DNA of 64,000 nucleotides from the human T2T-CHM13v2.0 reference genome, Homo sapiens (GCF_009914755.1 NC_060925.1), one strand, 5' to 3'. Counted from the stretch's first letter, positions 39,300 through 57,734 are shown. A program made the numbers and translations. The notes: generated from the letters alone by a model not told the origin.

Positions 39300-40960
39300 T
39301 TTTTATAAAGAGATGTTATTTTTAGAGCAGCTTTAGATTCCCTGCGATACTGAACAGAAGGTTGAAGTTTCATGTACCCCCTGCCCCCACATATGCATAA
39401 TCTACCCTATTATCAACCTCCCCCACCAGAATGGTACATTTGTTGCAATTGCTGAATCTACATTGATGCATCATCACCCAAAGTTTATAGTTTACATTGG
39501 GGCTCACTCTTGGTGTATATTCTATTGGTTTTGAAAAATGTGTAATGATAGGTTTGTTAGTCCATTTTGCATTGCTGTAAAGGAATATCTGAGACTGGTA
39601 ATTTATAAAGAAAAGAGGTCTATTTGGCTCACTGTTTTCAGGCTGTACAAGAAGCACAGCACCATCCTCTGCTTCTGGTCAGGACCTCAGGAAGATTTTA
39701 CTCATGGCAGAAGGCAAAGTGGGAGCTGGTGTGTCACATGGCAAGAGAGAGCAAGAGAGAAGGGAGCAAAAGAGGGAGGAGGAGGTGCCAGGTTCCTTTA
39801 AACAACCAACTCTTGTGTGAACTAATAGAGCAAGAACTCATTACCATGGGGAGGGCACCAAATCATTCATGAGGAATCCTCATGACCCAAACACCTCCCA
39901 CCAGACCCCACCTCCAACACTGGGGATCAAATTTCAACATGAGATTTGGAGGGGAAAAACATCCAAATCATATAAATAGGAATCCACAGCTATAGTATTA
40001 TACAGAGTAGTTTCAATGCTCTAAAAAATCATCCGGACTCCACCTAGTCATCCTTCTCTCCCCTCTAATCCTTGAAAAACCACTGATCCTTTTACTGTCT
40101 CTGTAGTTTTACCTTTTCCAGAATGTCATATATTTGGGATCTTATAATATATGGCCTCTTTCATTTAGTAATTGGCTTCTTTCATTTAGTAATGTATCTT
40201 TACATTTCACCCATGTCTTTTCATGGATTATAGCTCATTTCTTTTTTAACATCAAATAATATTCCATTGTTCCACGTACCACAGTTTATCTGTTCACCTA
40301 CTGAAGAACATTTTGGTTGCTTCCACTTTTTGGCAATTATGGATAAAGCTGCTATAAACAACCATGTGCAAGATTTTATGTGGGCATAAGTTTTCACATC
40401 TTTTCTTTGGGTGAACACCAAGAAGTATGATTGCTGGATCATATGGTAAGAGTATGTTTAGATTTGTAAGAAACTGCCAAACTGTCTTCAAAAGTGGCTA
40501 TACCACTTTGCATCTCCACCAGCAAGGAATGAGAGTTCCTGTTACTCCATATATTCTCGCCAGCATTTGGTGATGTCCATGTTCTGGGTTTTGACTTTTC
40601 TAATACATGTGTAGTGGTGCCTCATTGTTTTCATTTTCATTTCCCTGATGACATATGATATGAAGTATCTTTTTATAGCTTATTTGCAATCTATATATCT
40701 TTTTAGAGAGGTATCTGTTAAGGTCTTATCAAATCAGCTTGTTTTATTTTTATTCTTGAGTTTTAACAGTTCTTTGTATATTTTGTAAAACAGTTCCTGA
40801 TCAGATATATTTTCTCCAAGTCTGTGGCTTGTCTTCTCATTGTCTTGACAGTGTTTTTCACTGTCAAGTGAAAAACATTTTACATTTTAATGAAATCCAA
40901 ATTATCAATTCTTTCTTTCATGGATTGTGTCTCTTAGTATTGTATTCATGATATCATTTG
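39300..40960 (-). mobile_element. L1MC-type 3' UTR interrupted by an MST LTR
   Basis: ttttagagcagctttagatt...ccccaccagaatggtacatttg; decayed ORF2 C-terminus in ORFs 40221..40491. Confidence 0.82.
39553..39975 (-). mobile_element. MSTB-like solo LTR
   Basis: ttagtccattttgcattgct...catgagatttggagggg...atccaaatcatataa; TSD atagg. Confidence 0.88.
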
Positions 40961-41192: not shown

Positions 41193-41243
41193 ACACACAC
41201 ACAGACACACACACACACACACACAGACACACACACACACACA
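41193..41243. repeat. Interrupted (CA)n microsatellite
   Basis: Directly visible. Confidence 0.95.
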
Positions 41244-41506
41244 GCAGGCTGGTTAAAGAAGACCTGAGAAATGAATGTAGACATTCATTTCTCACTGGAG
41301 GAAGTCCTCAGGGACATCAAACTGGGTAGGGAGAGCTTTGTCTACAAACATCTTCTCTCTCTGATGCTACTCTGAGAGGTGGATGGCCCTCTTGTTTTTA
41401 TTGCAGTGCAAGAGCTACACCAGCCTAACATCAGCAGGCTGTGGAGAACATGAGAGCAGCCCTGCACATTTCTGTGCTGAGCAGAAGACAGTAGGCATAG
41501 GGAGCC

Positions 41507-54354: not shown

Positions 54355-54608
54355 TCACTGGGTATTATATTTCAATTGGAGCTTCTTTTATTACTAGTGA
54401 GCTAGTCAGTTCAAACATTTTTTAGGTCATTCGTTACTTATATAACTCTTTTTGTTTTTTAAACAAATGTTCTATTCTTGCTTTGTTGCCTGCTTTCTTT
54501 TTTGTATTGGGAGACATTTATTTTTCTTATTAATTTACAAAAGTATCAAATAGGGTGCAAATGTTGTTTCTCAGTTTTTTTTGCATACATTTAAAGTTTG
54601 ACTACTTT

Positions 54609-54895
54609 TTTTTTGAGATGGAGTTTTGCTCTTGTTGCCCATGCTGGAGTGCAATGGCACGATCTCAGCTAATTGCAACCTCTGCCTCCTGGGTTGAGGC
54701 GATTCTCCTGCCTCAGCCTCCCTAGTAGCTGGGATTGTAGGCACCTGCCACCATGCCCAGATAATTTTTGTATTTTTAGTAGAGATGGGGTTTCACCATG
54801 TTGGCCAGGCTGGTCTCGAACTCCTGACCTTACGTGATCTGTTCACCTCAGCCTCCCAAAGTGCTGGGATTACAGGTGTGAGCCACTGTGCCCAG
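54609..54895 (-). mobile_element. AluSq/Sp-like; source of the inverted duplicate
   Basis: Full dimer with T-tract; TSD tgactacttttt starting at 54599 and 54896. Confidence 0.93.
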
Positions 54896-55633
54896 TGACT
54901 ACTTTTTTAACATAGAAAATTTACTTAACTTTTCATTAACTTTATTGATCTTTATGTTCATGCTTCCTTTATTGTAAGATTACACAAATGTGTATATTTA
55001 TGCTTTCTTATAGTTTCATTATTTAATGGTTAAATATTGGCCCATCTAGAAATTCAATTTTTTAAACTGTATGAGGTAGGGGTATAGTTTTATATTATAC
55101 AAATGTATATACTTTCCCTAAGAGTTAAGCAGTTGCCCTGGGTTCAAATATTGATTAGTTTTCTTTTCCCAACTCTTCTCTTTCAACTTTGAAGATTTAT
55201 TTCATTATGTTATCTTTGAATTGGCTATTAGTACTCATAATTGAGTAATTTAAGTCATATGTAATATTATACTTCCCCATACAAGATTCAAGTTCTAGAG
55301 AATGATTTAGACTAAGATGTGGAGGTCTTCTTTGTTTAGACAGAATGACTCATATAACTTTTCTCCAATTAAATACCAATAAAGCCAGAGTCTGTCAAAC
55401 CAGTGGTTGATTCATTTCAATTTTTGAAAGTTACTCCAAGAAATAGCTTATGAAAGACTGTAGGAATGCCTCTTTATTACACACTTCTGCTAAGTTGTTG
55501 TCCTTTTTTGACACATCTTTAAGTATCTAGCAATAATACATTAAATCCATGCGATTTTTGTGCGTGTTTCTTAAATCCTCTGCACCTCAGTTTCTTCATT
55601 TGTAAAACTGGGATAATAAGAAATAAGAATACT

Positions 55634-55949
55634 GGCTGGGTACATGGCTCATGCCTATGATCCCAGCACTTTGGGAGGCTGAGGCAGGAGGATTGCTTGA
55701 GCACAGGAGTTCCAGAACAGCCTGGGCAACACAGCAAGACCCTGTGTCAACAAAAATTACAAAAATTAGCTGGGTGTGGTGGTGTGTGCCTGTGATCTCT
55801 GCTGCTCAGGAGGCTGAGGTGGGAGGATCACTTGAGCCTGGGAGGTTGAGGTTGCAGTGAGCCGTGATGGGATTGTGCCACTGCACTGCAGCCTGGGAAA
55901 CACAGAGAGACCCTGTCTCAAAAAAAGGAAGGAAGGAAGGAAGGAGAAA
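55634..55949 (+). mobile_element. AluJ with (GGAA)n tail
   Basis: Full dimer; TSD aagaatact / aagaaaact. Confidence 0.92.
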
Positions 55950-56016
55950 GAAAACTGACCTTCTCTGTTTGTGAGTCTAACACTCACAAACACATATTTG
56001 TTTGTGAAACATAGAA

Positions 56017-56330
56017 AAGTAAATTTTCTATGTTAAAAAAGTAGTCACTGGGCACAGTGGCTCACACCTGTAATCCCAGCACTTTGGGAGGCTGAGGTGA
56101 ACAGATCACGTAAGGTCAGGAGTTCGAGACCAGCCTGGCCAACATGGTGAAACCCCATCTCTACTAAAAATACAAAAATTATCTGGGCATGGTGGCAGGT
56201 GCCTACAATCCCAGCTACTAGGGAGGCTGAGGCAGGAGAATCGCCTCAACCCAGGAGGCAGAGGTTGCAATTAGCCGAGATCGTGCCATTGCACTCCAGC
56301 ATGGGCAACAAGAGCAAAACTCCATCTCAA
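56017..56330 (+). repeat. Inverted duplicate of 54613-54926 (Alu plus 31 bp of non-Alu flank)
   Basis: Base-by-base reverse complement comparison gives 313/314 identity; no A-tail and no TSD of its own. Confidence 0.97.
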
Positions 56331-57734
56331 TTTTGTGAGGTTTGTGAGGCTTTAATATGCATAAAGCCTCCAGTACTGAGTCTGTGGTTTGCTATTACTA
56401 TTATGAATGCTATCCAATGTCAAACTTACCTAGAAGTTCATTCTGCTACTGAAGACCTCTGTAATCTTTTGCTCAACTCTCTGTCCCCATTATCCTAAGT
56501 TACCTGTGATTTCCTCAAGGTACTTTTTCCCTCACATCTCAGCACTATGGATACACTGCTCCCTTTGCCGAGAATTCCCCACCCCACCTCTTCCGACCAC
56601 CCCCATCTCCCCTGATCCCCACCTTGCAGTCAGCCTTCAGGACTCAGCTCAGGCCTTAGCTTCCCCCAAGAGTCACAGTGCCTCCTACCCCAGCAAAAGT
56701 TATGTATCTCTCTTTCATGATTCCTCAGCAGTCTGTACTTTCTTCTATCAGGACATTCATTCATTTGTTCACTCATTCATTCATTTAACAAACACTTACT
56801 GAGTGGCTCCCACATACCAGACACTGAATTATCTGTCTGCCTGCCCCTGAAGAGCGTCTTATCCAACTGGCATATAGTCTGCACTTTGTAAGTGATGGCT
56901 AAACGAAAAAATGCCTTCCCAAAGAGGTACTGCCCCTAAAATGGACTTTCTGGGCTCCTTTTTTAAACCATCAAGATCCTTTTAGGGAATTCTAACATAC
57001 TCTGCAGTCTAATTTGAGTATAAAAAAAGAGGGATCCTCCTTAGTAGAAAATAGACGAGAAAGTGATAACATAACCTGGACATTCTATTTTCTTCCTGGG
57101 AGAAAAAAATTACTTATCAATTTCACCAAATTAGTGTAGATGGTATTTCCTAGGAACCTATTGTTTAAAAACAAACAAACAAAAGGCTTCCCTGCTGCTG
57201 CTCTCACTGGAAAACTCTTTCCGGTTGTTAGACTTCAGGAGATGTTTCCTGGTTGCTGATCTGACAAGAGACATCAGAAAGAACCGCATCAATCAGAGAG
57301 TTTGTGTCCTGCTCTACACACACACATACATTCACACCTCCCTTTCTCTACTACGCTTCTCTCCAAAGGTGCTTGCTGGATTCCACATCAGAATCCATAC
57401 CCCCACCCCCACCCCAGGAAAGGGTAATTGGACACATTGCCCTTCTTGAGGCCTGTGTGTCTCTGGATGCTCTGCCCTAAAACTCCTTAACCGGATGATA
57501 CAGCCCTGTATCATCTTGCTGTCAGCTCTTGATGTGCCCTGGAATTTCCAGGAATGAAGGGCACTCCGATGGAGAGTGATGTCCTTCGAGTCCTGTGACC
57601 TAGTTCTTTTCCAGTTCACTCAGTATTTTTGCAGAACAGGTGCCAAGATGGATGCATGCTATGTCCTCCCCAGTCAAATTGTGAGCATCTTCGAAGATGC
57701 CAAGTGCTGAGAACAGGGTATGTTAGCTAACTTG

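What the first reader, a model, noticed from the sequence alone, without database searches (positions are those of the whole stretch)
54613..56330. Near-perfect (313/314) inverted DNA-level duplication of an Alu plus its unique flank, 1.09 kb apart
Seen: 56017-56330 is the reverse complement of 54613-54926 with one difference, at a CpG site (agccgag vs agctgag). All private mutations of this old AluS copy are shared. The copy includes 31 bp outside the Alu 5' end (the TSD plus aacatagaaaatttactt), stops 2 nt into the A-tail and has no TSD, while the 54.6-kb copy has both tail and TSD. Inference: the direction is 54.6 kb to 56.0 kb, the event is recent, and it is template switching or break repair rather than retrotransposition. 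Established: closely spaced, near-identical inverted Alus are unstable and depleted in the human genome. Predicted consequences are recurrent inversion or deletion of the 1090-bp spacer and, if transcribed, a ~314-bp almost perfect dsRNA (ADAR substrate, potential MDA5/PKR ligand). Standard repeat annotation would simply call two Alus.
Basis: partly seen in the sequence, partly recalled or inferred. Interest (0 to 1): 0.8.

Follow-up and report, generated by a model that had tools for sequence, protein, structure and literature searches.

The report
Inverted local copy of an Alu
An old Alu repeat and 31 bases of its unique flank were copied in reverse orientation into a spot 1.1 kb away by a DNA copying or repair error, a known kind of mutation seen here in unusually clear detail.

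Summary
Window 54613-54926 and 56017-56330 are reverse complements at 313 of 314 positions, 1090 bp apart. Of 187 repeat pairs of 150 bp or more in the window, this is the only one at 90% or above; the next is 86.6%. The 31-bp non-Alu flank occurs only at these two places in the whole assembly. All 35 differences from the window's other Alus are shared. The single mismatch is a CpG-to-TpG change in the left copy.

The left copy is the source. It has a 13-bp target-site duplication that the right copy lacks.

The right copy sits inside an old interspersed repeat, within a roughly 364-bp insertion with a complex scar:
- five copies of the target motif TTTGTGA, four direct and one inverted;
- two perfect hairpins with 11-bp stems and 5-nt loops;
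- 0-2 nt of microhomology at the long-range junctions.

Best reading: a DNA-templated, multi-step template switch during replication or break repair, not retrotransposition. The age is poorly bounded, roughly 0.1-19 Myr. At a 1.09-kb spacing the predicted instability is modest. The dsRNA consequence is untested, and no gene is annotated here. This is a clean new member of a known kind.

The parts
54599..54611 (.). Left target-site duplication of the source Alu (TGACTACTTTTTT). Not part of the copied segment.
   Evidence: Identical to 54896-54908.
54606..54614 (+). Run of 9 T. It is the source's short A tail merged with the T's of the target-site duplication. Copying stops 2 nt into it, at 54613.
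54613..54926 (-). Left arm, the source segment. It holds the Alu on the minus strand (about 54615-54895), the right target-site duplication (54896-54908) and 18 nt of unique flank (54909-54926).
54667..54667 (.). The only difference between the arms. The source carries the derived TpG (A on the + strand); the copy (56276) and the majority of 15 other window Alus keep the CpG.
54927..56016 (.). 1090-bp spacer in ancestral orientation: unique sequence, the core of an old repeat (about 55560-55635), an older Alu on the + strand (55636-55925, with a GGAA-rich tail to about 55953), and the filler.
55966..55976 (+). Target motif copy 1 (TGTTTGTGAGT), the left edge of the insertion site in the old repeat and the left stem of hairpin 1.
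55976..56016 (+). 41-nt filler. In order: TCTAAC (origin unknown); an inverted copy of the motif (55982-55992, right stem of hairpin 1, 11-bp stem and 5-nt loop); CATATT; a direct copy of the motif (55999-56007); and AACATAGAA(AA), which runs to 56018 and overlaps the arm by 2 nt.
   Evidence: 28 of 41 nt are covered by exact matches of 9 nt or more to the neighbouring 60-nt stretches. None of 20000 shuffles reached this, and 2 of 619 real control stretches did. Parse.
56008..56018 (+). AACATAGAAAA. It is the reverse complement of 56024-56034 inside the arm (hairpin 2, 11-bp stem, loop GTAAA) and equally a direct copy of source 54909-54919. Its last AA overlaps the arm, giving 2 nt of microhomology.
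56017..56330 (+). Right arm, the inverted copy: 18 nt of flank, a 13-nt copy of the source's target-site duplication, the Alu body in + sense, then AA.
56331..56340 (+). T plus an extra direct copy of the target motif (TTTGTGAGG). No microhomology with the end of the arm.
56341..56349 (+). Target motif (TTTGTGAGG) where the old repeat resumes. A 9-bp palindrome (56346-56354 with 56362-56370) overlaps its last four bases.

Best explanation
A DNA strand being synthesised at about 56.0 kb, at a stalled fork or a broken end inside an old interspersed repeat, left its template at the motif TGTTTGTGAG. After several short abortive priming steps on nearby sequence it landed on the opposite strand about 1.1 kb away. 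There it copied 314 nt backwards, from 54926 to 54613: unique flank, target-site duplication and the whole Alu. It fell off 2 nt into a 9-bp A:T run and rejoined the original locus. The result is an insertion of about 364 bp whose core is an inverted copy of the source, which stayed intact.

In the four-point template-switch scheme this is the 3-2-1-4 pattern, at kilobase range instead of tens of bases.

Shown: the duplicate, its direction, the repeated target motif, the two snap-back hairpins and the 0-2 nt microhomologies.

Inferred: that all pieces arose in one event; which enzyme or pathway did it (replicative FoSTeS/MMBIR-type switching or polymerase-theta-type end joining); the order of the steps; and the age.

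The locus now carries a 314-bp near-perfect inverted repeat with a 1090-bp spacer. No function is indicated.
For: Identity and extent:
- 313/314 identity, with sharp ends.
- The non-Alu flank exists only at these two sites in the genome. The donor is therefore local, and gene conversion between two independent Alus is excluded.

Not an Alu transcript insertion:
- The copy starts 31 bp upstream of the Alu, has 2 A's instead of a tail, and the target lacks an L1-type site.

Direction:
- Only the left copy has both 13-bp target-site duplications.

The scar:
- The motif TTTGTGA occurs 21 times on both strands in 64 kb. Five of these occurrences bracket the copy.
- Only about 6 loci in the window have perfect hairpins with stems of 10 bp or more and loops of 3-8 nt. 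Two of them lie within 70 bp at the inner junction, both with 11-bp stems and 5-nt loops.
- 28 of 41 filler bases are copies of 9 nt or more of adjacent sequence. None of 20000 shuffles reached this, and 2 of 619 real controls did.

Target site:
- The majority of 20 genomic paralogs of the old repeat has the motif region once and is collinear with the window across the insertion.

Literature:
- Passages of PMC5068794 show that polymerase theta leaves flank-templated inserts in direct and, by snap-back, reverse-complement orientation. Most are under 25 bp, and 2-3% are copied from more than 1 kb away.
- Passages of PMC7954356 show that reverse-oriented template switches create inverted repeats, that 3-2-1-4 is a majority pattern, and that T8/T10 tracts are the most enriched motif around switch point 1 in that study. 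Here a T9 run abuts the point where copying ended (point 3).

Proximity:
- A donor only 1.1 kb from the target is expected for local template switching. It is about a one-in-a-million coincidence for a freely diffusing RNA or cDNA (inference: 3 kb out of 3.1 Gb).
Against: - No outgroup or second human haplotype was available. The empty site is inferred from paralogs of an old repeat, not seen.
- The filler and the extra motif copies could come from separate events.
- The parse into templated pieces is not unique. Pieces of 5-6 nt (TAACA, CATATT) may be chance.
- The main copied piece of 314 nt is much longer than typical polymerase-theta inserts (under 25 bp) and much longer-range than described short template switches (tens to hundreds of nt).
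- The outer junction has no microhomology, so a pre-formed fragment could have been ligated in.
- Snap-back and template jumping are also properties of reverse transcriptases (recalled), so the hairpin does not by itself exclude a cDNA.
Confidence: 0.72

Rival explanations
1. RNA-mediated patch. A read-through transcript of the minus strand of the source, covering flank plus Alu, was reverse-transcribed and captured at a double-strand break. This is endonuclease-independent retrotransposition, the route proposed for non-classical Alu insertions and class 2 templated sequence insertions.
For: The outward features match those listed for non-classical Alu insertions in passages of PMC5402677: no poly-A tail, no L1 cleavage site, and non-Alu sequence co-inserted. 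They also match class 2 templated insertions in passages of PMC5110952: intact donor, no poly-A, and microhomology or untemplated bases at the junctions. A hairpin at the end corresponding to the RNA's 5' end could be cDNA snap-back (recalled property of reverse transcriptases).
Against: The donor is only 1.1 kb from the target, and a trans-acting RNA has no reason to land there. No gene is annotated in the window (hub annotation). An Alu's own polymerase III transcript would not include 31 bp of upstream flank. Several filler pieces are copied from the target's own flanks, which is a DNA-templated signature.
Confidence: 0.1
2. Same origin, but old. The inverted duplication arose many millions of years ago, and the arms have been kept nearly identical by gene conversion, so 'recent' is wrong.
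For: The divergence clock gives only one event. The 95% interval is 0.09-19 Myr even without conversion (with recalled mutation rates). Inverted repeats in cis are known substrates for intrachromosomal conversion (recalled; a mouse-cell study by Bollag and Liskay is listed in the references of PMC5398296, not read).
Against: Arms of 314 bp are near the lower size limit for efficient homologous exchange in mammals (recalled). None of roughly 304 non-CpG sites differ. The 9-11 nt perfect filler repeats and both 11-bp hairpin stems are still unmutated, although conversion would not maintain them.
Confidence: 0.12
3. Assembly artefact. The second copy is not in the sequenced genome.
For: None found. 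It is raised only because I could not look at reads.
Against: The copy is embedded between unique and old-repeat sequence with intricate junctions, not a simple fold-back. It differs from the source at one base. The flanking old repeat resumes exactly after it.
Confidence: 0.03
4. Two independent Alu insertions homogenised by gene conversion.
For: Both arms are Alus in opposite orientation, the usual situation.
Against: Identity runs 31 bp beyond the Alu into the source's target-site duplication and unique flank. The right copy has no tail and no target-site duplication of its own. All 35 private differences are shared.
Confidence: 0.01

Closest known systems
Reverse-oriented template-switch mutations (four-point model; PMC7954356, abstract and passages; PMC5453318, search listing only)
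   Same: A nearby stretch is copied as its reverse complement and creates a perfect inverted repeat. The point order is 3-2-1-4, and an A:T tract lies at a switch point. A small example lies in the same window at 40844-40877.
   Different: Described events act over tens to hundreds of nt. Here the jump is about 1.1 kb, the copied piece is 314 nt, and several extra short switches accompany it.
Polymerase-theta-mediated end joining / synthesis-dependent MMEJ with templated inserts (PMC5068794, passages; PMC4912351, PMC5728401 and PMC2943611, search listing only)
   Same: Short flank-derived inserts in direct and reverse-complement (snap-back) orientation, repeated rounds of priming, and 0-2 nt of homology.
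   Different: Typical inserts are under 25 bp, and only 2-3% come from more than 1 kb away. A 314-nt piece is unusual for this pathway. The data are from C. elegans and in vitro systems, not the human germline.
Non-classical Alu insertions (as summarised in PMC5402677, passages)
   Same: An Alu without a poly-A tail, no L1-type target-site duplication or cleavage site, and non-Alu sequence co-inserted.
   Different: Those are usually truncated Alu fragments thought to come from RNA. Here the Alu body is complete, the extra sequence is the donor's own flank, the donor is adjacent, and the junctions show DNA-templated pieces.
Class 2 templated sequence insertion polymorphisms (PMC5110952, abstract and passages)
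   Same: A patch copied from an intact donor into a break, with end-joining features and no poly-A.
   Different: Those donors are distant and enriched for transcribed sequence, and RNA is the proposed template. Polymorphism at this locus is unknown.
Unstable inverted Alu pairs (Lobachev et al. 2000, as cited in PMC10164571, passages; PMC3215922, abstract and sections 5-6)
   Same: Full-length inverted Alus at about 100% identity, the most recombinogenic identity class.
   Different: The spacer is 1090 bp, not 100 bp or less. Fragility through cruciform formation falls steeply with spacer length. It persists mainly when long single-stranded DNA forms.

Membership tests
Classical L1-mediated (TPRT) Alu insertion | Intact 3' end with poly-A tail | tested here: not met
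   The copy ends with AA and is followed by TTTTGTGAGG.
Classical L1-mediated (TPRT) Alu insertion | Insert begins at the Alu's own 5' end | tested here: not met
   31 nt of the donor's upstream flank, including its target-site duplication, are included.
Classical L1-mediated (TPRT) Alu insertion | Flanking target-site duplication at a TTTT/AA-type site | tested here: not met
   The duplicated motif is TTTGTGAG, present in five copies (one inverted) and not A-rich at its 5' end. The site consensus is as quoted in PMC5110952.
Non-classical Alu insertion | No poly-A tail, no L1 site, non-Alu sequence co-inserted | tested here: met
   Criteria from PMC5402677.
Non-classical Alu insertion | RNA intermediate, and a deletion at the target | not testable with these tools
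   Needs the empty site from an outgroup and transcript data. Proximity of the donor argues against RNA (inference).
Reverse-oriented template switch (four-point model) | The inserted segment is the reverse complement of nearby sequence, and the source is retained | tested here: met
Reverse-oriented template switch (four-point model) | Short range (tens to hundreds of nt) | tested here: not met
   The jump is 1081-1090 nt and the copied stretch is 314 nt. Range as stated in PMC7954356.
Polymerase-theta-type templated insertion | Filler copied from sequence close to the junction, direct or reverse complement | tested here: met
   28 of 41 filler nt are covered, 0 of 20000 shuffles reach this, and there are two snap-back hairpins.
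Polymerase-theta-type templated insertion | Dependence on POLQ | not testable with these tools
   This is a historical germline event. Only the scar can be read.
Fragile inverted Alu pair (Lobachev criteria) | High arm identity (about 86% or more) | tested here: met
   99.68%.
Fragile inverted Alu pair (Lobachev criteria) | Short spacer (about 20-100 bp or less) | tested here: not met
   The spacer is 1090 bp. Spacer effect from PMC10164571.
Endogenous immunogenic inverted-repeat dsRNA | Both arms in one stable transcript | not testable with these tools
   No gene is annotated in the window (hub annotation). If transcribed, 312 of 314 arm bases pair in register.

The most novel reading that the evidence does not exclude
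The locus records a single kilobase-range switch from the leading-strand to the lagging-strand template. The copied stretch is about the size of an Okazaki-fragment gap and ends at an A:T run. The event would fill the gap between short template-switch mutations (tens of nt) and FoSTeS/MMBIR copy-number changes (kb to Mb). It would be young, human-specific or still polymorphic, so that carriers have a 314-bp perfect inverted repeat that can flip its spacer and, if transcribed, give a near-perfect long-loop dsRNA of the kind reported to load MDA5 (PMC13251931, abstract only).
Probability: 0.2. Interest if true: 0.55.

Novelty: new member of a known kind. Interest (0 to 1): 0.35.

Why it matters
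This is a well-preserved, base-resolved example of how an inverted repeat is born in the human germline. The donor, the target, five motif copies and two snap-back hairpins are all still unmutated. That makes it useful as a teaching case and as a search pattern: inverted repeat pairs whose identity runs past the repeat into unique flank. Standard repeat annotation would report two Alus and miss the event.

Practically, it adds a 99.7%-identical inverted pair to an intergenic region downstream of KCNK1. The expected effects are a low rate of spacer inversion or fold-back rearrangement under replication stress. Any RNA effect depends on transcription that is not documented here. It does not reveal a new mechanism.

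Tried and rejected
- Paralogs of the old repeat inside the window: nothing usable.
- Whole-genome search with the right-hand part of the old repeat (56341-56480): only the locus itself. The core part (55560-55635) gave 20 paralogs, used.
- A chr13 match to the junction region is AT-rich chance similarity with no Alu or flank structure.
- I looked for microhomology that could have primed copying at the outer junction and found none. At the inner end, the 7-nt GAAAAGT match would need a 5-nt skip, so I rejected it in favour of the 2-nt AA overlap plus the 11-nt hairpin.
- Gene conversion between independent Alus is rejected, because identity extends into unique flank.
- Inversion of the spacer in this haplotype is rejected, because the old repeat is collinear across the spacer's right end and the donor's flank continues at its left end.
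No repeat library is available, and I did not use a recalled consensus.
- I did not sample other parts of the genome to measure how common such pairs are.

Full report
**The observation**

The repeat finder reports arms 54613-54926 and 56017-56330, 314 nt each, with 1090 nt between them. A base-by-base comparison gives 313/314. The single difference is at left 54667 and right 56276, in a CpG context. The match ends abruptly on both sides.

The right arm consists of 18 nt of unique flank, a 13-nt copy of the source's target-site duplication, the Alu body, and AA.

In a self-comparison of the whole window, 187 repeat pairs of 150 bp or more were found. This pair is the only one at 90% identity or above (99.68%); the next is 86.6%. 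A 131-nt query that starts in the Alu's 5' end and holds all 31 flank bases (54880-55010) matches only these two places in the 3.1-Gb assembly.

**Which copy is the source, and when**

The left copy is flanked by identical 13-bp duplications, TGACTACTTTTTT, at 54599-54611 and 54896-54908. It has a 9-T run at 54606-54614 that merges a very short A tail with the duplication. The right copy carries only one of the two duplications, as part of the copied flank. The direction is therefore 54.6 kb to 56.0 kb.

I aligned the Alu with 15 other Alus of the window. The right copy differs from their majority at 35 columns and the left at 36, and 35 are shared. The extra difference is a T in the left copy where the majority and the right copy have the C of a CpG. 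So the source mutated after the copy was made.

The other window Alus differ from the same majority by 8-22%. This Alu is therefore old, and the duplication came late in its life. I did not determine the subfamily.

With recalled human mutation rates (non-CpG about 0.35e-9 and CpG about 3.9e-9 per site per year), one difference in 314 nt gives about 3.4 Myr, with a 95% interval of 0.09-19 Myr. Gene conversion between the arms would make this an underestimate. 'Recent' is thus only loosely supported.

**The target**

The copy lies in an old interspersed repeat, which I recall as MIR; no tool named it. A search of the assembly with the repeat's core (55560-55635) gave 20 paralogs.

Their majority sequence is collinear with the window through three stretches: the core, the stretch after an older Alu (from 55946), and the stretch after the inverted copy (from 56341). 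It has the motif region only once. The pre-insertion site most likely ran straight from the motif at 55966-55975 into the sequence at 56349 onward. This collinearity also shows that the spacer has its ancestral orientation in this haplotype.

**The junctions**

This is the new information. Reading left to right:

| Coordinates | Sequence | Reading |
|---|---|---|
| 55966-55976 | TGTTTGTGAGT | target motif, left stem of hairpin 1 |
| 55977-55981 | CTAAC | loop of hairpin 1 |
| 55982-55992 | exact reverse complement of 55966-55976 | right stem of hairpin 1 (11-bp stem, 5-nt loop) |
| 55993-55998 | CATATT | origin uncertain |
| 55999-56007 | TGTTTGTGA | direct copy of the motif |
| 56008-56018 | AACATAGAAAA | left stem of hairpin 2 |
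| 56017-56330 | 314-nt arm | inverted copy of the source |
| 56331 | T | single base |
| 56332-56340 | TTTGTGAGG | extra direct copy of the motif |
| 56341-56349 | TTTGTGAGG | motif where the old repeat resumes |

AACATAGAAAA is the reverse complement of 56024-56034 inside the arm, giving a second hairpin with an 11-bp stem and a 5-nt loop. It is equally a direct copy of source 54909-54919. It overlaps the arm by AA.

How unusual this is:
- The 7-mer TTTGTGA occurs 21 times on both strands in the 64-kb window, and five of those occurrences are here.
- Perfect hairpins with stems of 10 bp or more and loops of 3-8 nt occur at about six loci in the window. Two of them are within 70 bp at this junction.
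- Of the 41 filler bases, 28 are covered by exact matches of 9 nt or more to the adjacent 60-nt stretches. None of 20000 shuffles reached this, and 2 of 619 real control stretches did.

Microhomology at the long-range junctions is 0-2 nt. The copy ends 2 nt into the 9-bp A:T run of the source.

**Mechanism**

These features fit a DNA-templated, multi-step template switch. The relevant literature, from passages I read:
- Polymerase theta leaves inserts copied from the flanks in direct or, by snap-back, reverse-complement orientation, after repeated priming with as little as one base pair. Most inserts are under 25 bp, and 2-3% are copied from more than 1 kb away (PMC5068794).
[quoted passage not shown] The order 3-2-1-4 is one of the majority patterns, and T8/T10 tracts are the most enriched motif around switch point 1 (PMC7954356).

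The present event has the 3-2-1-4 order: point 3 = 54613, point 2 = 54926, point 1 is about 56007-56016, and point 4 is about 56331-56341. A T9 run sits at point 3.

A simple geometry is a rightward fork whose leading strand switches to the lagging-strand template about 1.1 kb behind the fork. It copies about 314 nt as if it were an Okazaki fragment, then returns. This geometry is inference.

What does not fit neatly:
- The copied length and the range are both larger than typical for either described process.
- The outer junction has no microhomology.
- I cannot show that the filler and the arm arose together.

**Rivals**

- An RNA or cDNA patch (non-classical Alu insertion, PMC5402677; class 2 templated insertion, PMC5110952) shares the outward features. 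It does not explain why the donor is 1.1 kb from the target, nor why filler pieces copy the target's own flanks. I give it about 0.1.
- An old event kept identical by gene conversion gets about 0.12. The short filler repeats, which conversion would not maintain, are still perfect.
- An assembly artefact gets about 0.03. I could not inspect reads, but the one-base difference and the intricate embedding speak against it.
- Independent Alus plus conversion gets about 0.01.

Instability:
- In wild-type yeast, identical 320-bp inverted Alus give about 20-fold fewer gross rearrangements with a 200-bp spacer than with 12 bp, and about 31-fold fewer with 1.5 kb. The rate stays above background.
- Recombination falls about 300-fold from a 12-bp to a 100-bp spacer.
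- In long single-stranded DNA the spacer no longer matters (PMC10164571, passages).
- In the human genome the inverted:direct ratio of adjacent full-length Alu pairs is about 0.07 at 24 bp or less, but 0.948 for spacers above 930 bp (PMC3215922, sections 5-6).
- The pair is therefore in the most recombinogenic identity class but at a spacing where the effect is modest.

dsRNA:
- If one transcript covered both arms, 312 of 314 arm bases would pair in register, with an MFE of -951 kcal/mol for the 1718 nt.
- A 2026 preprint reports that MDA5-bound endogenous dsRNAs are highly complementary inverted repeats with long intervening sequences in 3'-UTRs (PMC13251931, abstract only).
- No gene is annotated in the window (hub annotation), and I could not test expression. 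The dsRNA prediction stays conditional.

**Verdict**

The finding is real, and its core interpretation is right. The junction anatomy strengthens it. It belongs to known classes of mutation: template-switch and break-repair insertions, phenotypically a 'non-classical' Alu insertion. It has no sign of function.

I did not find this locus described in the literature searches. None of those searches was locus-specific, and variant catalogues were not available. Novelty: new member of a known kind. Interest 0.35.

Noticed in passing
window 40844-40877: Overlapping perfect hairpins (10- and 11-bp stems) inside an old L1-like repeat copy. The majority of 19 genomic paralogs lacks them. The window copy has a clustered change, 6 nt longer, that turns the stretch into the reverse complement of the bases just upstream. 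This looks like a small-scale template-switch mutation.
   Followed up: partly
window 41265-41294: Perfect hairpin with a 13-bp stem and 4-nt loop about 20 nt after a (CA)n-type microsatellite at about 41194-41244. Origin not examined.
   Followed up: no
window 56346-56370: A 9-bp palindrome (GAGGCTTTA ... TAAAGCCTC, 7-nt loop) overlapping the right edge of the insertion site. It could have favoured stalling or breakage there.
   Followed up: no
window 55636-55953: An older Alu on the + strand, about 19% from the window majority, with an A-rich tail that has become a GGAA repeat. It is inserted in the same old repeat about 40 bp upstream of the later insertion site. It is 74% complementary to the left arm.
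   Followed up: partly
L003 (G000:C13:23019372-23019428): An 82% match of 56 nt to the junction region. On inspection it is AT-rich chance similarity without the Alu or flank.
   Followed up: yes
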